Source: a virus. Taken from it: a DNA stretch of 64,000 nt. The stretch lies in IMG/VR virus record IMGVR_UViG_3300015371_000026, positions 3,392-67,391 of that record; one strand, given 5' to 3'. Positions within the stretch are counted from its first letter, which is position 1. Every line of letters starts with the position of its first letter. Of this stretch, positions 9,235-56,115 are shown one piece after another. The notes below the pieces were generated by a model. The model saw only the letters and a list, made by a program, of their open reading frames with translations, made no database searches and was not told the origin of the DNA. The position numbers were made by a program, and so were the translations under genes.

Positions 9235-10679
9235 CCGCGCGCCGACAGTACGAGGACATCCCGGGCTCTGGCAGGATCGTGACCACGTCGACGCGCACGC
9301 TGAGCGCCAGCGAGCGCTCGCTGGAGCTGCGCGAGCGGAGCGACCCGATCCTGTCCATGGACGAGGTCGCCCAGCTGCTGACGTCGTTCCAGTACGGCGG
9401 CCTGCGCTACACGCTCCCCGGCGCGAGGCAGGAGGAGATCGGCGCCAACTACAGCGGGTTCGCGTCGCACGCGTTCGGGGCCTGCGTCCCGGTGTTCGCG
9501 TGTATCGCCGTGCGCATGTCGCTGTTCTCCGAGGCGCGCTTCCAGTGGCGGAACCTGCGCTCAGGCCACCCCGGGAAGATCTTCGGGACGAACGAGCTGG
9601 AGGTGCTGGAGCGACCGTGGCCGGGCGCGACGACCGGCGATCTGCTCTCGCGCATGGAACTCCACAACTGCATCGGCGGGAACGCGTTCGTGGCCCGCAC
9701 CGGGTCGCCGCCGCGTCTGGCGCTGCTGCGCCCAGACTGGGTGGACATCATCGTCGGGAGCGACGACCCGACCGCCGACGTCGGATCGTGGGACCCGGAG
9801 GCGATCGTCATGGGCTACGTCTACTACCCGGGCGGGCGCTACTCGGGGCGCGAGGCGCGCATCTACACGCCGCTCGAGGTCGCCCACTACGCGCCGCTGC
9901 CGGACCCGATGGCGCAGTTCAGAGGCATGAGCTGGCTGCAGCCCGTCGTGCGCGAGATCATGGCTGACAAAGCGACGACTGAGCACAAGCTGCGCTACTT
10001 CGAGCAGGGCGCGACCAAGAACCTGCTGGTCAAGTTCAACACGGACGACCTGGAGAAGTTCCGCAGCTGGACGGACGAGTTTCGCGAGCAGCACGAGGGG
10101 TCGCGTAACGCGTACAAGACACTGTTCCTGGCCATGGGGATGGACGTCGACACCATCGGCGACAACATGGAGCAGATCGACTTCAAGAAGACGCAGGGTG
10201 CTGGCGAGACGAGAATCGCAGCAGCCGCTGAGGTACCGCCGATCATCGTCGGCCTGAGCGAGGGGCTGGAGTCAGCGACGTACTCCAACTACGGCCAGGC
10301 TCGCAGGCGCTTCGCGGACGGCACCCTGCGCCACCTCTGGCGGAACGCGTGCGGCTCGCTGGAGCATCTGGTCGCGCCGCCGGGAGGGACGCAGCTCTGG
10401 TACGACGAGGCTGACATCCCGTTCCTGGCGGAGGACGCCAAGGACGCCGCGCAGGTGCTCGTGGCCCAGTCGACCGCGATCAAGACGCTGGTCGAGGCCG
10501 GGTACACGGTGGATAGCTCTCGCGATGCCGTCGTCTCGGGCGACCTGAGCACGCTTCAGCACTCGGGTCTGATCAGCGTCCAGCTTCAGAAGCCAGGCGA
10601 GAAGCCGACACCGGACAACAAGTCGAATGGCGCGGGTCAACCCGCGAACGTGCCCAGCCCGGGAGGGCAGGCGGCGTGA
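9231..10679 (+). CDS. Portal protein (HK97 family)
   Basis: VFACI, GNAF, LRPDWV, FRGMSWL, IAAAAEVPP..VG..ATYSN. Confidence 0.9.
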   Translation: MTARRQYEDIPGSGRIVTTSTRTLSASERSLELRERSDPILSMDEVAQLLTSFQYGGLRYTLPGARQEEIGANYSGFASHAFGACVPVFACIAVRMSLFSEARFQWRNLRSGHPGKIFGTNELEVLERPWPGATTGDLLSRMELHNCIGGNAFVARTGSPPRLALLRPDWVDIIVGSDDPTADVGSWDPEAIVMGYVYYPGGRYSGREARIYTPLEVAHYAPLPDPMAQFRGMSWLQPVVREIMADKATTEHKLRYFEQGATKNLLVKFNTDDLEKFRSWTDEFREQHEGSRNAYKTLFLAMGMDVDTIGDNMEQIDFKKTQGAGETRIAAAAEVPPIIVGLSEGLESATYSNYGQARRRFADGTLRHLWRNACGSLEHLVAPPGGTQLWYDEADIPFLAEDAKDAAQVLVAQSTAIKTLVEAGYTVDSSRDAVVSGDLSTLQHSGLISVQLQKPGEKPTPDNKSNGAGQPANVPSPGGQAA

Positions 10680-10722
10680 GCGCTGCCGGACGCGTGCGAG
10701 CGAAGGAAGGAGATCAGAACAG

Positions 10723-13700
10723 ATGAGCACAACGCAGCAGCGCGTCGATGACCCGGGCGACTTCTACCGGCCGCTGAACGAGATCCCGTCGTCTCTGCCG
10801 CGCGAGAACCTGCTGCGCGCGGTCGACGCCAGCGTGGAGTACGTCGAGCGCGCGGATCCCCAGGCGGGCGGGCCGCGTATCTTCGGGCACTTCGCGGTGT
10901 TCGACCAGTGGGCGCTGATCGACTCCGCGACCGAGGGCGTGTTCATGGAGCGCTTCGCGGCCGGGTCGCTGGCCAAGTCGCTGCGCGAAGGTCGCGACCG
11001 GATCAAGTGCATCATGCGGCACGGGACGAAGACGCCGCTGGGCGAACTCGTGCTCGGTCGGATCGTTCACCTCGAGGAGGACTCGACGTTCGAGGTCGAG
11101 CTGTTCCCCGAGCTGGAGCGCGAGGCGCCGCTGCTGATGGCGGGCCTGCGCGCGGGCGAATACTCGATGTCGTTCAAGTTCAGAGTGATCAAGTCGAACG
11201 ACGTCATGCGCCCAGCACGCTCGGCGTACAACCCGCGCGGGCTGCCGGAGCGCACCGTCACAGAAGCAGCTGTGCGCGAGTTCGGGCCGTGCACGTTCGC
11301 CGTCTACGAGGGAACCGCGCTCAGCATGCGCTCGATCACAGACGATGTCGTGCGCGAGCGGCTAACGATCCTCGACGAGCGCCACGAGGTCGGTCGCGCG
11401 CAGCAGGAGAACCGTCTGTACGAGCGCTCGCTCGACTACGTCGGGTCGAGCGTCTGGCTGCTGGAGCCCGACTCGCTGCGCACCATCGTCGGGATCCTCG
11501 CTGAGCGGCGCGAGGGGCATCGGGCCTCGCCGGAGGAGATCGCGGAGCGCATCGGCGCGCGCGCTGCTTCAGACGAGCCAGCAGATACCGGGCAGAAGGA
11601 CTCGGTCGCAGTGATCCCGATCACAGGGCCGCTGGTTCCCCACGGGAGCGGCATGAGCGCGACCAGCGTTCCGCTGCGCAGCGCGGAGACGATCCAGCAG
11701 GAGGTACGCGCAGCTGCGCTTGACCCAGAGATCGGCGCGATCATGCTCGACATCAACTCGCCCGGCGGAGCGGCGAAGATGATCCCGGAGCTGGCGGCGG
11801 AGATCGCCGCCGCGGGTCAGTCGAAGCCGGTGGTCGCGATGGCGAACACGCTCGCGGCGTCGGGCGCGTACTGGCTCGCGACAGCAGCAGACGAGATCGT
11901 CGCGTCACCGTCAGCTGAGGTCGGCTCGATCGGCGCGTACTCGGTCCACGAGGACGTCTCCGCGGCGATGGAGATGAAGGGCGAGCGGGTTACCCTCGTC
12001 TCGGCCGGTAAGTACAAGGTCGAGAAGAACCCGTTCGAGCCGCTGGACGAGGAGGCGCGCGCAGACATGCAGTCGCGCGTCGACGAGCTGTACAGCGAGT
12101 TCGTCAGCGCGGTCGCGAAGGGTCGCGGAGTCAAAGCGTCCGAGGTGCGCGCAGGGTTCGGGCAGGGCCGCACGGTGATGGCCAAGGCGGCGCTGAAGGA
12201 AGGCATGATCGACCGCATCGCGACGCGCGATCAGACCCTGACGCGTCTGCGCAAGGTCGCGACGGCGATCGTCGACGGCGACCGCGGCGCAGCTCAGGTC
12301 GAGTTCGACGCGCCTGACGAGATGGTCGGCCCCCTGTCGTTCGACTACTCGAAGCTACCGATCAAGGTCGTCCTCGACGCCGAGCGTCTCGGCGAGCAGC
12401 TAGCAGCGATCACAAGACGGAACGGCGAGACGTTCGCGACGGGCGGCGTCGTCGCCAGCGCGCGACCGGAGGCCGTCGTTCCGCTGACACATATTTCCGA
12501 GCCGGAGCCGTCCGCGGCCACCACTCAGGAACGGGCAGAGCCGGAGCCCTCAGAGGCCACCACTCACGACACGGCCGCGCAGGACGCGGCACACGGACCG
12601 GATGGGAAGGAGCAGCAAGTTATGTCCATTGTCGATGGGGAAGTTCACCTCACGATCGAGCAGGTGCGTGATCGCCTCGACTCGATCAAGGTGCGCTTTC
12701 AGGAGATCCACACCGAGTTCGGCGCTTCAGTGAAGCCCGACGCGGTCAACGAGGAGATCGACCAGCTCCTCAGCGAGCGCGATCGGTTGGAAGAGGCCCA
12801 GCGCGACTGGGAGCGGACGGCATCGATCCTCGAGAGCTACGCGACCCGTGAAGATCGACGCGACGGGAGCGAGCGCACCGGACGCCGCATCGGGAACGGC
12901 GGCATCCACTCGAACGTCGACCGGCACCCCGGTGTCCCGGCCGACATCTACAGCCTGGTTGAGTACGGGCGACTGAACAAGGCGGAGGACCTCATCCCCG
13001 CGCTCCGCGAGGGCGCGAAGATGGCGGTCGACCGCGCCGTGTTCTCGCACCCCGATGTCGAGAAGGCCGATCAGCAGGCGCGTATCGAGAAGCTGCTCGA
13101 CACGGTCGACAAGAAGCACGGTGCTCTCGCCGAGCTGATCCTGGCGACGGGATCACCAACGTACGAGCGCGCATTCGGGAAGACCCTGATGGGCGAAGGG
13201 CTCTCTCCCGAAGAGGAGCGCGCGATGTCGCTGACCACCACTGCTGGCGGCTTCGCGGTTCCGTACACGCTCGACCCGACGCTCATCCTGACGTCCAACG
13301 GTGTCGTCAACCCGCTGCGGGCCATCTCGCGGGTCGAGAACATCACCGTGAACGAGTGGCGCGGGCTGAGCACGGCGGGCATCGCCGCGGCGTACACCGC
13401 GGAAGCGACAGAGGCGACGGACGCGAACCCGGTGTTCGCACAGCCGACCGCCAACGTCGAGAAGGCGCAGGCGTTCATCCCGTTCTCCATCGAGATCGGA
13501 GAGGACTGGGGCCAGCTCCAGTCGCAGATGGCGCGTCTGTTCGCCGACGCCAAGGACACGCTCGAAGCCGACAAGTTCCTGAACGGCTTCGGCCACGCGT
13601 CCAACGTCCCGGAGGGTCTGCACACCGGCGCCACGGTCGTCGTCTCGACGGCGTCCGCGACGACGTTCACTGTCGCAGACCTTTACTCGCTGACGGAGGC

Positions 13701-14082
13701 TCTGCCGCCGCGGTTCGAGCCGAACGGCCGGATCGTCGGCAACCTCAAGCAGTTCAACCGCGTGCGTGCGTTCGACACGTCCGGTGGCGCTGCGCTCTGG
13801 GTTCAGCTGCGTGACTCGCTCCCGAGCGATCTCATCGGCTACCCGTCATACCGCTACAGCAACATGACCTCGACCATCGCGTCGGGCGCGACGATCCTGA
13901 CCTTCGGAGACTTCTCCGAGTTCCTGATCGTCGAGCGAATCGGGATGAGCATCGAGCTGATCCCGCATCTGTTCGGCAGCTCGAACAGGTTCCCGACCGG
14001 GCAGCGCGGGCTGTACGCCCACTGGCGCAACACCTCCAAGGTGCTGACCAACAAGGCGTTCGTCTCGCTGAAGGTCACGTAG
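10723..14082 (+). CDS. Polyprotein: HK97 prohead protease + S49 peptidase + linker + major capsid protein
   Basis: GHFAVFD, MSFKF, EFGPCTFAVY; LDINSPGG, AASGAYWLA, VGSIG, SAGKYK; AGGFAVP, PEG, FGDFS; ATG 10723 preceded by AAGGAG. Confidence 0.88.
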   Translation: MSTTQQRVDDPGDFYRPLNEIPSSLPRENLLRAVDASVEYVERADPQAGGPRIFGHFAVFDQWALIDSATEGVFMERFAAGSLAKSLREGRDRIKCIMRHGTKTPLGELVLGRIVHLEEDSTFEVELFPELEREAPLLMAGLRAGEYSMSFKFRVIKSNDVMRPARSAYNPRGLPERTVTEAAVREFGPCTFAVYEGTALSMRSITDDVVRERLTILDERHEVGRAQQENRLYERSLDYVGSSVWLLEPDSLRTIVGILAERREGHRASPEEIAERIGARAASDEPADTGQKDSVAVIPITGPLVPHGSGMSATSVPLRSAETIQQEVRAAALDPEIGAIMLDINSPGGAAKMIPELAAEIAAAGQSKPVVAMANTLAASGAYWLATAADEIVASPSAEVGSIGAYSVHEDVSAAMEMKGERVTLVSAGKYKVEKNPFEPLDEEARADMQSRVDELYSEFVSAVAKGRGVKASEVRAGFGQGRTVMAKAALKEGMIDRIATRDQTLTRLRKVATAIVDGDRGAAQVEFDAPDEMVGPLSFDYSKLPIKVVLDAERLGEQLAAITRRNGETFATGGVVASARPEAVVPLTHISEPEPSAATTQERAEPEPSEATTHDTAAQDAAHGPDGKEQQVMSIVDGEVHLTIEQVRDRLDSIKVRFQEIHTEFGASVKPDAVNEEIDQLLSERDRLEEAQRDWERTASILESYATREDRRDGSERTGRRIGNGGIHSNVDRHPGVPADIYSLVEYGRLNKAEDLIPALREGAKMAVDRAVFSHPDVEKADQQARIEKLLDTVDKKHGALAELILATGSPTYERAFGKTLMGEGLSPEEERAMSLTTTAGGFAVPYTLDPTLILTSNGVVNPLRAISRVENITVNEWRGLSTAGIAAAYTAEATEATDANPVFAQPTANVEKAQAFIPFSIEIGEDWGQLQSQMARLFADAKDTLEADKFLNGFGHASNVPEGLHTGATVVVSTASATTFTVADLYSLTEALPPRFEPNGRIVGNLKQFNRVRAFDTSGGAALWVQLRDSLPSDLIGYPSYRYSNMTSTIASGATILTFGDFSEFLIVERIGMSIELIPHLFGSSNRFPTGQRGLYAHWRNTSKVLTNKAFVSLKVT

Positions 14083-48530: not shown

Positions 48531-49058
48531 TCACCTCACTCCTTCCGCCAGCAGCGGGTCGACCGCCGTGGCCGTGTACATCGGACGATACGTCCCGACC
48601 GGCGCGGCGACGCCGATCGGCCCGACCACCATCTCGTACTGGGCCTGTGCCTGCGCTGCGCTCATGCTCCAGTACGTTCGCAGCGACCAGCGCAGCATGA
48701 CGACCGACCCGAGGTCGGCGTTCTGCTCGTCGTGCTCGTTGAACGCCACGTGCCAGAACTCGTGGTACAAGACGCGCGCTGCCGTCGCCCAGGACAACTG
48801 CATGCGCGGGTCGATGTCACCTGGCTTCCCGTGAAGCAGAAGATCAGCCGCCCATCCCGCGAGCGTGATTCCCTGCTTCCGGTCGCCTGCGTACGCGCAG
48901 CTGTTGTCGTAGCTCCACGTGTACACGGGCATGTCCAGCGGCAGTTTCGCTTCGAGCGCGGGCGACTCGACGCGCCCGTACTCATCTGCGTGTGCAGCCT
49001 GTACGCCGCCAGCGAGTGCGAGCGCGACGACGCAGCCGATGACGAGTAGCTTCGTCAT
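48531..49058 (-). CDS. Secreted HExxH protein
   Basis: Signal peptide ending AAHA; VLYHEFWH..E..AD. Confidence 0.55.
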   Translation of the reverse strand: MTKLLVIGCVVALALAGGVQAAHADEYGRVESPALEAKLPLDMPVYTWSYDNSCAYAGDRKQGITLAGWAADLLLHGKPGDIDPRMQLSWATAARVLYHEFWHVAFNEHDEQNADLGSVVMLRWSLRTYWSMSAAQAQAQYEMVVGPIGVAAPVGTYRPMYTATAVDPLLAEGVR

Positions 49059-49078
49059 CTCTCTCACCTCTTCCCTTC

Positions 49079-49143
49079 GGACTCATCGGTGCGGCCAAGT
49101 AGCCGCAGACGCGCGAACGTCTCAGCGCTCGCGCGTTTCGTCC
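49079..49143 (-). ncRNA. Hammerhead ribozyme, type II (CCGAUGA core variant)
   Basis: GGAC GAA ACGCGCGAGCG cugaga CGUUCGCGCGU C UGCGGC uacuug GCCGCA CCGAUGA GUCC; intergenic. Confidence 0.8.
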
Positions 49144-51642: not shown

Positions 51643-54160
51643 GCTGCGAGCGACTAGCGCTCGCTTTCCTCAAGCTGCTGGATCTCCGCGTGCGTCTCGC
51701 GCAGCTCAGCTGCCTTGCGCTCGAACTCGTCTGCGATCGTCAGCAGGTTGTCCCCGTTGATCTCCCAGCCGAGATCTTCGCGCCAGTTGCCGCGACGCAG
51801 TACGACGATCGCCTGGCCCATGACTGTCTCGCTCAGCGTCATCGCGATCACTGCTCCTTTACGACGACGTGGAACTGTCGCCCGTCGCGCAGATGAACGA
51901 CGAACCCGCTATCGCGAGTCATCCACGTTCCGCCCGCGTAGTTCTCGGTCGTCGCCTCTTCCAGCTCGTCGACGTCGATCGAGCTGTCGACGTCCTCGGG
52001 ATGCCCGATCGCCTTGTCGACGACCTCCTGCAGAAACATCGCGAACTCGACCTCGGTGAGCGTCTGCTCGTCCTCGTCGGGCTCGTCTTCGCGTGAGTAG
52101 AAGTCGTACATCGCTCTCACCTCTCCGGAATGTTGTACTGGACGTTGAACTCGTACGTCGCGCGCGCCTCTGTTAGCTCGACGCGTGACGCGATCCACAC
52201 CATCTGATCGGTGCGCGTGTTGATCTCGACGAAGTACCGATACCCGGCGGCGACGACCGTCGTGATCTCGCCAGCGTCGGGCTGATCTTTCCAGTCCCAG
52301 ACGATCGGGACGATGTCGATTCGCTCGTTCATCTCAGCTCACCTCGCCTGGGTAACCGTCGGCGACGCAGCTCGGGCAGACGGGTCCGTACTCGTCGACG
52401 CTCCACTGGCCGCACTTGCAAAGGCCAGCCTGCTCGTTCAAGCCGACGGCGATCTTCGACGCCAGCTCGACCATCTTGGCGTAGCGCGCGGCCGCGACCG
52501 GCGAGACGCTTCCGTGCGCCTGCCAGTTCACCTCTGCGCCCTTCAGCTCTCCGCCGAAGCGCTCCTCTGGCTTCCAGATCTCGACCTTCGCCAGCGGTGT
52601 CGCGGGCTGCTCGTTCGGCCACAGCTCCAGCGAGTAGTGGCTTCCGTCCTCGATCTTGTACAGCGTCGTGTTCTCGTCCTTACTGATGACGATTAGCTCC
52701 TTCATCGTTCCTCACCTCCCTGCGCGCTCGCGCGCGCGTCGACTTTTGTTGTGCGTCTCTCGCACCGGGCCGCTCCGGTCAGAGCCGGAGTCGACCGCTA
52801 CGGCCGCAGTCATCGCAGACTTCCGCGCCGTAGCTCGACCAGCTCGAACTGGTCGAGATCGTCTCTACTGGCGTAGTGGAGCGCGAGCGTGTCGCGACCG
52901 CGCTGGATCGCCTCGACGTACGTTTGCGCGATCACGTCTGTTGTACGTCCGAACCCCATGCGCTCGTGGCGCCAGGCCAGCTTCCATTCGTAGGCTCGGT
53001 CTCTCATCGTTCTCACCTCTCCTCTGCGATGTCGACGAAGTCGACGCCGCTTCCGTAGGGATAGCCGTTGACGACGCTCGCGTGAACAAGCTCGTCGCCG
53101 CGCGTGTACAGCGTGACGCGGAGCCCGTTCGTCGCGAGCGCTCGCGCGTTCTCTGCCACGACCGCGTTCGCGCGCTTCGAGTACAGGATCGCGTAGGCGT
53201 GACCGAACCCGTGAAGACCGTCGCCGTGGGTACGAACGCCGAAGTCCTTGTAGCAGCCTGCTCGACGATCGCTGCGCCAACGAAGTCCGAGCGCGCTCAG
53301 CTCGTCGCGGATCTTCTGTGCCTGGAGCGTGATCATCGCTCTCACCTCTCGTCGTAGTAGTGGTCGACCATCTCGACGTGCACGGGCGTCTCCACTCGCG
53401 GGAACGCCTCCGCCCAGGAGACGACTCGCCCGTCCGGCATCCGGACGGCGTTGATCGCGACGTCGTACGCCGCGTCGATGTGCTGCTTCTTCTTCATCGT
53501 TCTCACCTCGCCTCGCGCGTACGCGCGTCTACGAACAGGCGCTCTCGATCTCGAAGCGCTCGTCCTCGGTCATCGTCTTCCACACTTTCCGGATGCGCGC
53601 CTCGATCCCCGTGCGGAACTGCAGCGGGCGCGTTCGAGCCTCGAATACCAGCTTCCAGTATGTCTCGACGTTCGTCATCGTGCTCACCTCTCCTCGATCT
53701 CGTAGGACGCTGCCTTGCGACTGTCGCCACCAGCGACGTCGCGGCGCGCGTTCAGATTGCGTCGACGCAAAAGATCCTGCGCCATCAGCTCGACGTTCTC
53801 GCGCGAACTCGCGATACGAAGACGCGCGCTGCCGATCTGCTCTCCGTCCTTCGTCAGAAGTTTGATCAGGTACTTCATCGTCGCTCACCTCTCAGTCTCT
53901 CTCGTCGATCTGCTCGCCCTTGCACCGGAACTTCCAGCAGCAAAGACCCGTCAGTACGATGTACAGCTCGATAGCGATCAGAACGATCATCGCTCTCACC
54001 TCTCCTCGCGGTCGAGCAGAACGTGCAGGCTCGACCAGTTGTGCATGAAGTCGTGCGCCCAGCTTGAAACGTCCAGCAGCATAAGCGCGACGTGCGCGCC
54101 GTGGATGACGAACTCGAACATGTGTCTCGCTCCGTTCCGCAGGCGACGTTTGCGCCCGCT

Positions 54161-54219
54161 CGAAGTTTCGGCCGTGCTCTCGGCCATCGTCAGCGCGCCA
54201 GCGTTAGGCGCGGACTTCG
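54161..54219 (-). ncRNA. Hammerhead ribozyme, type III
   Basis: CGAAGU C CGCGCC uaacgcu GGCGCG CUGACGA u GGCCG agagca CGGCC GAA ACUUCG. Confidence 0.85.
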
Positions 54220-54643
54220 TTCGTAACTCATCTGCCACATTCCGAGACTCGCGCGCGTCGCGTCTTATCTACTCGGCCGACTAACGACGCGTCCTGCACT
54301 CGCTGGCGTCTTCGCCGCGCGTCACCGCTTCGTTCGTTCGCTCTCGCTCGTTCGGCTCGTCAGCCTGCCCCGGCTCTCGTGCATCCGGGCGGCTCGCTTC
54401 TCGCGCGCGAGTCTCGTACTGCGTGTGACGCTCGCTCGTCTCGCGTCGTTCGTTAGTGGCTTCGTCATCTGTTATCCGGCTTTCGTTAGTTGGGCTATCG
54501 AGGGAGTCGCGCGTTCGACTCGGAATCTCGATCCCCGCTACTCGCCGGTGACCGCGGGGGGCTGTTCTCGGGAGGTCGCCCCTTCACCTTATGGCCCTCG
54601 TCTCGCGCTCTCTCGCTCTCTCTCCTCTCTCTCGACTAGCTAC

Positions 54644-54672
54644 ATCGTACGTCTTACGTACGAATCTGTATA
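54644..54672 (-). promoter_or_regulatory. Leftward promoter with overlapping inverted repeat (operator candidate)
   Basis: TATACA-N17-TACGAT on the minus strand; TCGTACGT-ctt-ACGTACGA at 54645-54663; locally AT-rich. Confidence 0.5.
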
Positions 54673-54778
54673 CGAAGAATCTACGTATGGCTCTAAGGAA
54701 ATCTATGGAAATAGCGACTTTTTTGGACGAGGAATGGCTCGCCAAGCGCTCTCGCGTCTGGGATACTGCGTCGACTCG

Positions 54779-54970
54779 ATGAGCCAGAACGACCTCTCCA
54801 GCGAGCCCGTCTTCGAGGCGTACGTGGGCGCACCGTGCGAGCGCGAGCTACACCAAGCGCTGACGAAGATCGCGCGACGTAACGACCGCAGTCTCGCCGC
54901 AGAGATCAGACGCGCGCTACGACGACACGTCGAGCGGGAAACGCCGGAGCTACCGGCGGCAACGGCATGA
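54779..54970 (+). CDS. Arc/RHH-type regulator
   Basis: ELHQALTKIARRNDRSLAAEIRRAL. Confidence 0.7.
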   Translation: MSQNDLSSEPVFEAYVGAPCERELHQALTKIARRNDRSLAAEIRRALRRHVERETPELPAATA

Positions 54971-56115
54971 ACACAGCGACGACGAACGTCACTGACGTCT
55001 CACCCGTCGAGGCGAATCGCGTCAACGCATACGTGACGACGACGCGGCGTGGTCGCTACTACTCGTGGCGTGACGAGAACTTCTGGAGCGTCACGACGAT
55101 GATCAACGGCGGCGTTCCGAAGGGCGACGTACTCGTCAACTGGGCCAAGAAGTTCACAGCTGAGTACGCGTGCGACAACTTCGAGCAGCTGCGCCAACTT
55201 CTAACGCCGCGCGGCGGTAGTTCGCGCGACATCGACCTCGAACTCGCTGCCGCACAGATCGAGGCGATCGCGCGTCTCGTCGAGATCGCGCGTACGAGTA
55301 ACGTCGAAATCGACCGCGAACTCGCGCTGGCGCAGCTTCGCGCCGTCGCTGTCGCGCTTCAGTCGCGCGGCGGGTACGTCGACAGGGACGCAGCTGTCCA
55401 GTGGCTGAAGGACGCCGCGTATCGCGACCGCGATCGCAAAGGCCAGCTCGGCGAGAAGATCCACGACGCCATCGAGGCGTACGTGCTCGGCCAGCCGTTT
55501 CCGAAGTGGACGCCCGACATTCTCCCGCGTATGAACGCGTTCGAGCGGTTCCTGGCACGCTACGAACCGAACTACGAGATCGGGATGACAGAGGCGTCGG
55601 TGTTCAATCGGTCTCACCGCTACGCCGGTCGCGCCGACACAGTCTTCGAGATCGGACGAGGTCCGCATAAAGGACGACGCGTGCTGAACGACTACAAGTC
55701 TGGCGGGAAGGACGTCTACCCAGAAGCCGCGCTTCAGCTCGCTGCGTATCGTCGCGCAGAGTTCGTCGGTGCGCCAGACGGCTCGGAGCAGCCGATGCCG
55801 CCTGTCGACATGACTACGGTGCTCTGGCTGCCTGACGACGGCGAGTTCCGACTGGTCGAGGTCGCGACGACAGACGACGTCTTCCGCGCGTTCCTATACG
55901 TGCGCGAGAACTATCGCTGGGCTGACTCGATCAGTAAAGGTGTCGTGCTCGGAAACGTCGCGAGCGACCCGCCGCAGCCAGCATCTGACGCTGAGCGCGA
56001 ACTCGCGAACGAGCTAGCACGTTCTGATTCGCCCCACGGCGAAGAGGGGGAGGGCGAGGCCAGCGCTGGCGGCGAACAGGTCATCGCTCTCCCCCTCCCC
56101 CCGGAGAAGACGTGA
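54967..56115 (+). CDS. PD-(D/E)xK exonuclease (RecE/Cas4-like)
   Basis: SVTT, G.KIHDAIE, YAGRAD, DYKSG, QLAAY. Confidence 0.8.
   Translation: MNTATTNVTDVSPVEANRVNAYVTTTRRGRYYSWRDENFWSVTTMINGGVPKGDVLVNWAKKFTAEYACDNFEQLRQLLTPRGGSSRDIDLELAAAQIEAIARLVEIARTSNVEIDRELALAQLRAVAVALQSRGGYVDRDAAVQWLKDAAYRDRDRKGQLGEKIHDAIEAYVLGQPFPKWTPDILPRMNAFERFLARYEPNYEIGMTEASVFNRSHRYAGRADTVFEIGRGPHKGRRVLNDYKSGGKDVYPEAALQLAAYRRAEFVGAPDGSEQPMPPVDMTTVLWLPDDGEFRLVEVATTDDVFRAFLYVRENYRWADSISKGVVLGNVASDPPQPASDAERELANELARSDSPHGEEGEGEASAGGEQVIALPLPPEKT

What the first reader, a model, noticed from the sequence alone, without database searches (positions are those of the whole stretch)
54161..54219. Type III hammerhead ribozyme at the head of the leftward small-gene operon
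Seen: the minus strand reads CGAAGUC-CGCGCC-uaacgcu-GGCGCG-CUGACGA-u-GGCCG-agagca-CGGCC-GAA-ACUUCG. That gives three perfect stems, a CUGANGA/GAAA core, a GUC cleavage triad and complementary loops (GCU/AGC). Known: this is the hammerhead consensus, and hammerheads occur in some phages with mostly unknown roles. Inferred: cleavage between 54213 and 54212 cuts the long leader off and gives the polycistronic mRNA a 5'-OH end about 90 nt before the first ATG (54121).
Basis: partly seen in the sequence, partly recalled or inferred. Interest (0 to 1): 0.85.

Follow-up and report, generated by a model that had tools for sequence, protein, structure and literature searches.

The report
Hammerhead ribozyme before phage small-gene operon
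A complete self-cutting hammerhead RNA motif sits just upstream of the first gene of a leftward block of small genes in an uncultured soil phage; it looks genuine, but such ribozymes are already well known in phages.

Summary
The minus strand of 54161-54219 reads exactly as reported and folds on its own into the three-way junction. All hammerhead core bases are present, with one extra U after A9. Rfam Hammerhead_3 matches end to end at 35.5 bits. That is below its 48.5-bit cut-off, and Rfam's speed filters missed it in longer searches. A model built from 19 type III hammerheads of unrelated viral contigs scores it 63.5 bits, against 12.6 for the next best place in the window. No random 64-kb sequence out of 300 gave stems this good.

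The host genome is a complete 67-kb uncultured virus, seemingly an actinophage, from rhizosphere metagenomes. The site lies 39 nt before the first ATG of the leftward small-gene run.

Most likely the RNA cuts itself between 54213 and 54212. That would remove the leader and leave an mRNA with a 5'-OH end capped by the stem I hairpin. Neither cleavage nor transcription was tested: no RNA data and no close relatives exist.

Phage hammerheads before genes were described in 2011 (PMC3088659), so this is a new member of a known kind. This scan has flagged many phage hammerheads on other DNA.

The parts
54161..54219 (-). Complete type III hammerhead ribozyme motif (59 nt)
   Evidence: Sequence. Minimum-energy fold equals the three-way junction. 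Rfam RF00008 35.5 bits over the full model. Own model R1 63.5 bits, E 2.4e-15, filters off.
54213..54215 (-). GUC triad (G16.2 U16.1 C17). Predicted scission is 3' of C54213, between 54213 and 54212.
   Evidence: Position in the Rfam and R1 alignments. Cleavage itself is inferred from hammerhead chemistry, not tested.
54194..54212 (-). Stem I hairpin: CGCGCC, loop UAACGCU, GGCGCG. It becomes the extreme 5' end of the downstream product.
   Evidence: The fold of the predicted 3' product keeps this hairpin at nt 1-19.
54186..54193 (-). Core CUGACGA (C3-A9) plus one extra U before G10.1
   Evidence: the U is an insertion relative to the Rfam consensus. My search pattern allowed any one base at this position, and all 22 distinct type III examples from viral contigs carry one: U in 16, A in 5, G in 1.
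54170..54185 (-). Stem II hairpin: GGCCG, loop AGAGCA, CGGCC. AGC in the loop is complementary to GCU of loop I.
54161..54169 (-). G12 A13 A14, then A15.1 and the 3' strand of stem III (ACUUCG)
54139..54159 (-). Small hairpin between the ribozyme and the ribosome-binding site
   Evidence: Fold of 54122-54160 (-12.9 kcal/mol, z -0.70, so not better than shuffles). The layout resembles RiboJ; significance is unproven.
54130..54133 (-). GGAG Shine-Dalgarno-like motif, 8 nt before the ATG at 54121
   Evidence: Read.
53996..54121 (-). First small ORF of the leftward run (41 aa, no family match)
   Evidence: A GTG at 54238 would extend this frame through the ribozyme (80 aa) but has no obvious SD.
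54220..54640 (-). Putative purine-rich, non-coding leader that would be cut off (extent inferred)
   Evidence: No Rfam match of note. A 20-nt inverted repeat lies at 54238-54257 / 54402-54421. Strong A-over-T skew on this strand. The start point is not mapped.
54640..54740 (.). Low-GC block (0.40-0.45 against about 0.64), the likely divergent promoter zone
   Evidence: The sigma-70 scan found no promoter, so this is inference.
49072..49143 (-). Possible second, type II hammerhead-like element with core CCGAUGA (U4 to C). Membership is not established.
   Evidence: RF02276 20.7 bits (cut-off 37), E 0.031 in 151 nt. RF00008 14.5 bits. R1 11.1 bits. It folds as a three-way junction, -36.0 kcal/mol, z -2.91.

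Best explanation
This is a genuine cis-acting type III hammerhead ribozyme in the 5' untranslated region of the leftward small-gene operon of an uncultured phage. The phage is probably an actinophage.

Proposed mechanism. Leftward transcription starts somewhere upstream, probably in the low-GC block near 54640-54740. Once the 3' strand of stem III (54166-54161) has been made, the 59-nt motif folds. The GCU/AGC contact between loops I and II holds stems I and II side by side, and the RNA cuts itself 3' of C54213.

The upstream piece (the leader) ends in a 2',3'-cyclic phosphate. It keeps only 7 nt of the ribozyme.

The downstream piece is the polycistronic mRNA. It starts at 54212 with a 5'-OH that is base-paired from its very first nucleotide in the GC-rich stem I hairpin. 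Then follow stem II, a small hairpin, GGAG and the ATG at 54121.

The net effect is a fixed, structured 5' end for the operon mRNA, independent of where transcription began. That end probably protects the mRNA from 5'-end-dependent decay. This would make the element a natural counterpart of the synthetic RiboJ insulator.

Shown here: the motif, its fold, its statistical significance, its position and its strand context. Inferred: transcription, cleavage, leader length and the effect on stability.
For: Motif:
- Full core and three perfect stems.
- RF00008 35.5 bits end to end.
- Model R1, built from 19 type III hammerheads of viral contigs with no detectable protein similarity to this phage (0 tblastn hits), scores it 63.5 bits against 12.6 for the next best place in the window.
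- 0 of 300 random windows give comparable stems.

Class. The pattern CTGANGANGGCC..GGCCGAAAC gave at least 118 viral-contig stretches. My script classed 24 of the 125 contig motif instances as type III, with the same build as here. They have a 5-7 bp stem I and one extra base after A9; many also share a loop I of about 7 nt, such as UAAUGCU.
- Stems I and III covary in the 19-sequence alignment: 93.4% of cells paired, 0 of 500 shuffles as high.
- Loops I and II have at least 3 contiguous Watson-Crick pairs in 15 of 23 distinct sequences. Shuffled loops give a mean of 7.5, with a maximum of 15 in 200 rounds. The pairs covary: GCU/AGC, UCCU/AGGA, GCC/GGC, and the swapped AGCA/UGCU.

Context:
- By a crude rule, 22 of the 24 contig examples have a start codon opening an ORF of at least 30 aa within 46 nt downstream, and 17 of 24 have an SD-like motif.
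- A cultured Pseudomonas phage (PQ287641.1) has the same kind of element (60.7 bits) 15 nt before an annotated small CDS.
- In this window, ORFs and strand skews show leftward coding from 54121 down to about 41350.

Precedent, from passages read:
- Phage and prophage hammerheads flank genes and cleave in vitro and in E. coli. In haloviruses HF1/HF2 a hammerhead lies 13 nt before the first ORF of an early polycistronic transcript whose mapped 5' end is within 3 nt of the cleavage site (PMC3088659).
- RiboJ (a type III ribozyme plus a hairpin before the RBS) standardises 5' ends and raised transcript abundance about twofold (PMC6206723).
- The predicted 3' product keeps the stem I hairpin at its first nucleotide.
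Against: - The Rfam score is below the gathering cut-off (35.5 against 48.5).
- R1's seeds were fished with a pattern copied from this site's core and stem II, so about 19 nt of the 63.5-bit match is by construction. The seeds were also selected for paired stems, which inflates.
- No conservation test was possible. The only other copy found is 100% identical, and the contigs of four further runs show no variant.
- 80 loci around exonuclease homologues (27-50% identity) contain no hammerhead by my descriptor or by R1 with default filters.
- No RNA run holds the region, and no promoter was found.
- In long-context folds (441 nt and 141 nt) stems I and II persist but stem III is replaced by other pairings.
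- A GTG at 54238 opens a frame that runs through the ribozyme into the first ORF.
- In Bacillus subtilis the 5'-OH product of the glmS ribozyme is degraded by RNase J1 (PMC3328962, passage read), so a 5'-OH end need not stabilise.
Confidence: 0.7

Rival explanations
1. The ribozyme lowers expression rather than protecting it. Cleavage exposes a 5'-OH end that a 5'-to-3' exonuclease of the RNase J type attacks, as happens after glmS ribozyme cleavage. The hammerhead would then set or limit the level of the small-gene operon.
For: In B. subtilis, RNase J1 degrades the glmS downstream product because of its 5'-OH end (PMC3328962, passage read). That actinobacteria possess RNase J is established knowledge that I recall; no call tested it.
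Against: The 5'-OH nucleotide is paired from position 1 in a 6-bp GC hairpin. By general knowledge, such a hairpin hinders 5'-end-dependent nucleases. The synthetic analogue RiboJ raised transcript abundance (PMC6206723). A constitutive ribozyme would be a wasteful way to lower expression.
Confidence: 0.12
2. The point of the cut is the upstream piece. The roughly 430-nt purine-rich leader would be released as a separate non-coding RNA, with its 3' end (2',3'-cyclic phosphate) made by the ribozyme.
For: The stretch between the low-GC block and the ribozyme has no convincing gene. It contains a 20-nt, 90% complementary inverted repeat at 54238-54257 / 54402-54421. The 441-nt fold has z -2.21.
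Against: No Rfam family matches the leader. No relatives exist to test conservation. A type III ribozyme leaves almost no structure on the upstream fragment's 3' end, so that fragment should be the less protected product (inference).
Confidence: 0.08
3. The element works as a pair with the hammerhead-like motif at 49072-49143. Two cuts would release a 5.1-kb multi-gene RNA with 5'-OH and cyclic-phosphate ends, possibly for separate stability control or ligation.
For: A type II-like three-way junction lies on the same strand between a stop codon and the next RBS: RF02276 20.7 bits, E 0.031, fold z -2.91. Multiple hammerheads flanking gene blocks are described in prophages (PMC3088659).
Against: The second motif has C in place of the conserved U4 and scores far below the family cut-off of 37. 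The section on core variants in PMC3088659 that I read lists no U4 variant. Those authors looked for spliced or circular products and found none.
Confidence: 0.06
4. The motif is inert: a relic or chance match that is not transcribed, misfolds in context, or lies inside a coding frame starting at the GTG at 54238.
For: It scores below the Rfam cut-off. There is no expression evidence. Long-context folds lose stem III. An 80-aa frame spans it. It is absent near the exonuclease gene in 80 distant relatives.
Against: 0 of 300 random windows give such stems. Every core base is intact. The loop-loop complementarity fits the covarying class. Its position before an SD and ATG matches 22 of 24 independent examples.
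Confidence: 0.06

Closest known systems
Type III hammerhead ribozymes (Rfam RF00008, clan CL00010)
   Same: Open stem III, closed stems I and II. Core C3-A9, G12-A14, A15.1-U16.1 and C17 are all present. The alignment covers the full model.
   Different: 35.5 bits against a 48.5-bit cut-off. It has a 7-nt loop I (6 nt count as an insertion), an extra U between A9 and G10.1, and GC-rich stems, unlike the consensus of the Rfam model. From recall, that model derives largely from viroid and satellite RNAs. The context is a DNA phage mRNA leader, not a rolling-circle replicon.
Phage and prophage hammerheads flanking genes, including 'HHphage' of haloviruses HF1/HF2 (Perreault et al. 2011, PMC3088659)
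   Same: An intergenic, same-strand position just before a gene in a phage, with small non-conserved ORFs downstream. In HF1/HF2 the ribozyme precedes the first ORF of an early polycistronic transcript and matches its mapped 5' end. [quoted passage not shown]
   Different: Here there is a single canonical copy at the operon head, behind a leader of several hundred nt, rather than tandem copies between genes. The HF1/HF2 element is a core variant in an archaeal virus. Activity was shown for some of theirs and for none here.
Unannotated type III hammerheads in 24 IMG/VR contigs and in Pseudomonas phage HHBS51_1 (PQ287641.1, 6132-6188)
   Same: Same build: the contig examples have a 5-7 bp stem I, all carry an extra base after A9 and the GGCC stem II, several have complementary loops, and the ribozyme lies 0-46 nt before a start codon. 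Loop II AGAGCA is identical in L065/L069.
   Different: The host phages are unrelated (0 tblastn hits). Most of those copies look intercistronic (for the cultured phage; the crude upstream-stop distances), whereas this one follows a long non-coding stretch.
RiboJ synthetic insulator (sTRSV type III hammerhead plus a 23-nt hairpin before the RBS; PMC6206723)
   Same: The order of parts is the same: type III hammerhead, hairpin, RBS, gene. Cleavage removes any upstream leader and leaves a structured 5' end.
   Different: RiboJ is engineered. The hairpin here is not better than shuffled sequence (z -0.70). No effect on expression has been measured here.
glmS ribozyme
   Same: A self-cleaving RNA in a bacterial 5' UTR that yields a 5'-OH mRNA.
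   Different: It has a different fold and is ligand-dependent, and its product is destabilised by RNase J1. Nothing suggests ligand control here.

Membership tests
Hammerhead ribozyme, type III (RF00008) | Three helices around a junction, with stem III open and stems I and II capped by loops | tested here: met
   Sequence. The minimum-energy and centroid fold of the 59-mer. Rfam and R1 alignments.
Hammerhead ribozyme, type III (RF00008) | Conserved core C3 U4 G5 A6 N7 G8 A9 and G12 A13 A14 | tested here: met
   CUGACGA at 54193-54187 and GAA at 54169-54167. One extra U lies after A9. An extra base at that position occurs in natural hammerheads: I saw only the title of De la Pena and Flores 2001 in a reference list, and it is present in all 22 distinct contig examples, where my pattern allowed it.
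Hammerhead ribozyme, type III (RF00008) | A15.1-U16.1 pair, G10.1-C11.1 pair, and a non-G residue at position 17 before the scissile bond | tested here: met
   A54166-U54214, G54185-C54170 and C17 = C54213.
Hammerhead ribozyme, type III (RF00008) | Score at or above Rfam's gathering cut-off (48.5 bits) | tested here: not met
   35.5 bits. Nothing reached the gathering threshold on the whole window.
Hammerhead ribozyme, type III (RF00008) | Tertiary contact between stems/loops I and II needed for fast cleavage | tested here: inconclusive
   GCU/AGC gives 3 Watson-Crick pairs here. In the class, 15 of 23 have at least 3 pairs (shuffled mean 7.5, maximum 15 in 200 rounds), with covarying pairs. 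No structural or kinetic test was made.
Hammerhead ribozyme, type III (RF00008) | Site-specific self-cleavage giving 2',3'-cyclic phosphate and 5'-OH ends | not testable with these tools
   No RNA run holds the region. A bench assay is needed.
Hammerhead ribozyme, type III (RF00008) | Conservation with compensatory changes at the same locus in related genomes | tested here: inconclusive
   No close relatives: 0 in viral contigs and only a 100% identical copy in metagenome contigs. 80 distant loci have no hammerhead near the exonuclease gene. Covariation was seen only across unrelated phages of the same ribozyme subclass.
Phage/prophage gene-flanking hammerheads (Perreault et al. 2011) | Intergenic, on the coding strand, immediately upstream of a phage gene | tested here: met
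   39 nt before the ATG at 54121, with GGAG 8 nt before the ATG and leftward ORFs downstream. The record is a complete virus with terminal repeats.
Phage/prophage gene-flanking hammerheads (Perreault et al. 2011) | Several hammerheads bracketing genes or gene blocks | tested here: inconclusive
   There is only one canonical copy in the genome. CTGANGAN{8,40}GAAA matches twice, and the other match is not a hammerhead by my descriptor. R1's next best score is 12.6 bits. One U4-to-C type II-like candidate lies at 49072-49143.
One-ribozyme, many-substrate-site arrangements noted earlier in this scan | Repeated copies of the ribozyme's substrate half before downstream genes | tested here: not met
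   The 13-mer substrate with up to 3 mismatches gave 103 matches against 87.5 +/- 8.7 expected (5 of 100 shuffles reach it), with no cluster on the minus strand of the operon. The 10-mer gave 48 against 29 expected, but the matches are scattered over both strands.

The most novel reading that the evidence does not exclude
The canonical type III hammerhead at the operon head and the U4-to-C type II-like element 5.1 kb downstream are both active. Together they would carve out a defined multi-gene early RNA (54212 to about 49108) with 5'-OH and 2',3'-cyclic-phosphate ends. Its stability, or its ligation by an RtcB-type enzyme, would then be controlled separately from the rest of the transcript. 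That would also make U4C a naturally tolerated core variant.
Probability: 0.06. Interest if true: 0.6.

Novelty: new member of a known kind. Interest (0 to 1): 0.3.

Why it matters
The biological role of the many hammerheads in phage genomes is still open. The reviews I read say so (PMC6155905 and PMC6765202).

This copy is a clean case for testing one idea. It is a single, full-consensus ribozyme at the very head of a long operon of small unknown genes. Its architecture (ribozyme, hairpin, RBS) is the one synthetic biologists built as RiboJ.

If cleavage fixes and protects the mRNA 5' end, that would show that phages use ribozymes as natural 5' insulators. On its own, however, it adds one more example to a class described in 2011.

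A practical by-product concerns method. Rfam's filters, and the loose first look of the genome search, miss such GC-rich phage hammerheads unless very short stretches are searched. The same subclass is unannotated in at least one cultured Pseudomonas phage.

Tried and rejected
1. Rfam at gathering threshold on the whole window gave 0 matches. The E-value mode on 701 nt did not list the hammerhead. Only the 81-nt search did.

2. The genome search with RF00008 on the phage's own genome missed the site. It reported only a 14.5-bit match at window 49041-49115.

3. Close relatives. megablast of 52000-56000 against GenBank phages gave no match. The search for related loci with the exonuclease in viral contigs gave none. 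In metagenome contigs it gave one locus, 100% identical over 7025 nt. No covariation test at the orthologous locus was therefore possible.

4. Distant relatives. 80 loci (896,178 nt) around exonuclease homologues gave 0 descriptor hits and 0 R1 hits at E<=1 with default filters. The filters may miss weak matches.

5. Expression. No RNA holder was listed. Contigs of 4 DNA runs were laid and showed no variant letters. Several short, unlike pieces with loose ends came from other organisms.

6. Promoter and terminator scan of 53800-55100 found none.

7. 'Cleavage frees the start codon from pairing with the leader'. The 141-nt fold suggested it. However, the duplex energy of the 29 nt before the ribozyme against the 70 nt after it is not unusual: z -0.94 here, mean z 0.02, and 0 of 23 below -2 across the class. 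Rejected.

8. 'One ribozyme, many substrate sites', a lead from earlier notes. There is no array of substrate-like sites. In addition, a type III product keeps stem I closed, so it has no free arm. Rejected.

9. The leftward-operon proteins gave no informative family. In PHROGs, 8 of 10 had no match and 2 matched families of unknown function. In Pfam, 0 of the 8 leftward ORFs queried had a match (whose ninth query was the + strand ORF 54425-54970).

10. Rows dropped. Of the 22 distinct type III sequences from contigs, L096 (20-nt loop I) was left out of A1. L016 and L048 (misaligned by MAFFT) were left out of A2 and so of R1, leaving 19 of 22.

11. Supplementary files of papers were not opened. 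Figures S4-S8 of PMC3088659 may list type III examples or core variants that bear on the extra U and on U4C.

Full report
**The observation.**
- Stem III: CGAAGU (54219-54214) pairs with ACUUCG (54166-54161).
- C17 is C54213.
- Stem I: CGCGCC / GGCGCG (54212-54207 / 54199-54194), with loop UAACGCU.
- Core: CUGACGA (54193-54187), followed by one extra U (54186).
- Stem II: GGCCG / CGGCC (54185-54181 / 54174-54170), with loop AGAGCA.
- GAA lies at 54169-54167.

Folded alone, the 59-mer adopts precisely this three-way junction as both its minimum-energy and centroid structure (-24.9 kcal/mol, z -2.19).

**Is it more than chance?** Rfam gave nothing at gathering threshold on the whole window. It also gave nothing for this site in a 701-nt E-value search. 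On 81 nt, Hammerhead_3 (RF00008) aligned over all 54 model positions at 35.5 bits, E 8.3e-7, against a family cut-off of 48.5. So the score is below the curated threshold but far above noise, and the longer E-value search lost it to speed filters.

I wrote a descriptor for all three hammerhead topologies: a strict core, stems of at least 4/3/3, and an optional extra base after A9. It finds this one site in the window. It finds 14 sites in 300 random 64-kb sequences with the window's dinucleotide make-up, none of them with stems of at least 6/5/6. It finds 0 in 896 kb of other phage DNA.

**An independent model.** There were 126 motif instances in those loci plus the window. My script classed 25 of them as type III (24 contig instances plus the window), 95 as type I, and left 6 unclassed.

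The contig type III examples are built like this one. They have a 5-7 bp stem I and one extra base after A9. Many have a loop I of about 7 nt such as UAAUGCU or UGAUGCU, and loop II is AGAGCA in L065/L069.

None of these contigs shares detectable protein similarity with the window (empty tblastn result at E<=1e-5).

From 19 of the 22 distinct contig sequences I built model R1. L096, L016 and L048 were dropped for alignment reasons. With filters off, R1 scores the site at 63.5 bits (E 2.4e-15). The next best place in the window scores 12.6 bits.

Two caveats apply. The seeds were fished with a pattern copied from this site's core and stem II, so roughly 19 nt match by construction. My script also required paired stems, which inflates the covariation count (93.4% of cells paired; 0 of 500 shuffles as high; all 6 stem I pairs and 4 of 6 stem III pairs change on both sides).

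**Loop contact.** 15 of 23 distinct sequences have at least 3 contiguous Watson-Crick pairs between loops I and II; shuffled loops give a mean of 7.5 and a maximum of 15 in 200 rounds. 7 of 23 have at least 4 pairs, against 7% in cross-paired controls. The paired triplets covary: UGCU/AGCA, swapped AGCA/UGCU, UCCU/AGGA and GCC/GGC. Perreault et al. showed that such Watson-Crick contacts between stems I and II are common and needed for fast cleavage (PMC3088659, passages read).

**Surroundings.** The window is bases 3392-67391 of a 67,391-bp IMG/VR virus record with direct terminal repeats, rated complete. It encodes the following:
- a portal protein;
- a fused S49 protease and major capsid protein;
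- a LamG-domain protein;
- a Gp3-like protein;
- a Cas4/RecE-like exonuclease at 54967-56115.

The exonuclease's best tblastn hits are Arthrobacter, Microbacterium and Streptomyces phages at 27-38% identity. GC is about 64%. Near-identical DNA occurs in several rhizosphere metagenome runs. An actinobacterial host is therefore an inference.

Coding and strand skews run leftward from 54121 to about 41350 and rightward from about 54780. The leftward ORFs are small and match no informative family. [quoted passage not shown]

The ribozyme ends 39 nt before the ATG at 54121, with GGAG 8 nt before the ATG. Upstream on the same strand there is no convincing gene until a low-GC block at 54640-54740 (GC 0.40-0.45), which I take as the likely divergent promoter zone. 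The sigma-70 scan found nothing.

The + strand ORF ending at 54970 has a weak ribbon-helix-helix match in its C-terminus. It overlaps the exonuclease start by ATGA.

**Context in the class.** By a crude rule, 22 of the 24 contig type III examples have a start codon opening an ORF of at least 30 aa within 46 nt downstream. 17 of 24 have an SD-like motif. By eye, many show a plain SD plus ATG.

A blastn search of the site against GenBank phages found two Pseudomonas phages covering 80% of the query. In HHBS51_1 the R1 match (60.7 bits) lies 15 nt before annotated CDS0023, within a run of small hypothetical genes, and it is not annotated.

**Mechanism.** I commit to co-transcriptional self-cleavage between 54213 and 54212. 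Because the topology is type III, nearly the whole ribozyme stays on the downstream product. That mRNA begins with a 5'-OH cytidine paired from its first nucleotide in a 6-bp GC hairpin. The leader keeps only 7 nt of stem III and a cyclic phosphate.

The result is a defined, structured 5' end whatever the transcription start. This is the logic of the synthetic RiboJ part, a type III hammerhead plus a hairpin before the RBS, which standardises 5' ends and raised transcript abundance about twofold (PMC6206723, passages read).

The closest natural precedent is the HF1/HF2 halovirus hammerhead. It lies 13 nt before the first ORF of an early polycistronic transcript whose 5' end was mapped to within 3 nt of the cleavage site (PMC3088659).

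Transcription, cleavage, leader length and the stability effect are all inferred.

**Results against the reading.**
- The score is below the Rfam cut-off.
- There are no close relatives: one identical metagenome contig, no variants in four runs, and 80 distant loci without a hammerhead.
- There is no RNA evidence.
- Longer folds keep stems I and II but replace stem III.
- A GTG at 54238 opens a frame through the element.
- A 5'-OH end can also be a degradation signal, as with the glmS ribozyme and RNase J1 (PMC3328962).

**Rivals tested.** Pairing between the leader and the start region is not better than shuffles here (z -0.94) or across the class (mean z 0.02). There is no array of substrate-like sites for trans cleavage.

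A second hammerhead-like element lies at 49072-49143. It is type II in order, with core CCGAUGA. It scores RF02276 20.7 bits at E 0.031 and folds as a three-way junction (z -2.91). It could bracket a 5.1-kb block, but its U4-to-C change and low score leave it unproven.

**Comparison and novelty.** By anatomy this is a type III hammerhead. It fails only the Rfam score threshold among the features I could test.

Hammerheads in phages and prophages, placed before genes and thought to process polycistronic RNAs, have been known since 2011 (PMC3088659). Later reviews still call their role open (PMC6155905, PMC6765202). This scan has also noted many phage hammerheads on other DNA.

The finding is therefore a new member of a known kind. 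Its modest extra interest lies in its position at the operon head and its RiboJ-like layout.

Noticed in passing
window 49072-49143 (-): A type II hammerhead-like three-way junction between a TAA stop (49146-49144) and the next RBS/ATG. Its core is CCGAUGA (C where U4 is conserved). RF02276 20.7 bits against a cut-off of 37, E 0.031. Fold -36.0 kcal/mol, z -2.91.
   Followed up: partly
window 54238-54257, 54402-54421, 54508-54526: A motif of about 20 nt (core CGAGACTCGCGCGCG) occurs once in one orientation and twice inverted within the putative leader or divergent control region: 90% and 79% complementary. It could be an RNA stem or operator sites for the neighbouring RHH-like protein.
   Followed up: no
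window 54780-54970 (+), within ORF 54425-54970: The C-terminal 35 residues or so give weak ribbon-helix-helix matches (FitA-like RHH E 0.0016, RHH_1 E 0.0069, both below cut-off). The ORF end overlaps the exonuclease start by ATGA. It may be a small regulator heading the rightward operon.
   Followed up: no
window 10627-14082 (+): A single 1151-aa ORF combines Peptidase_S49 (residues 398-544) and Phage_capsid (874-1149). This looks like a fused prohead protease and major capsid protein.
   Followed up: no
L014, L036, L050, L064, L091, L095 (IMG/VR contigs): Two or three near-identical hammerheads with an open stem I lie on one strand of the same contig, spaced from about 300 nt to about 3.3 kb. 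This fits the gene-flanking arrays of Perreault et al. 2011.
   Followed up: no
L202 1503-1559 (PQ287641.1, 6132-6188): Cultured Pseudomonas phage HHBS51_1 carries an unannotated type III hammerhead (R1 60.7 bits, GUA site) between CDS0022 and CDS0023, 15 nt before the latter's start.
   Followed up: partly
window 54161-54219 (method): The 35.5-bit Hammerhead_3 match appears only when about 80 nt are searched. The 701-nt E-value run did not list it, and the loose first look of the genome search did not find it. The whole-window gathering run could not list it, since it is under the cut-off. GC-rich phage hammerheads may be systematically under-called.
   Followed up: partly
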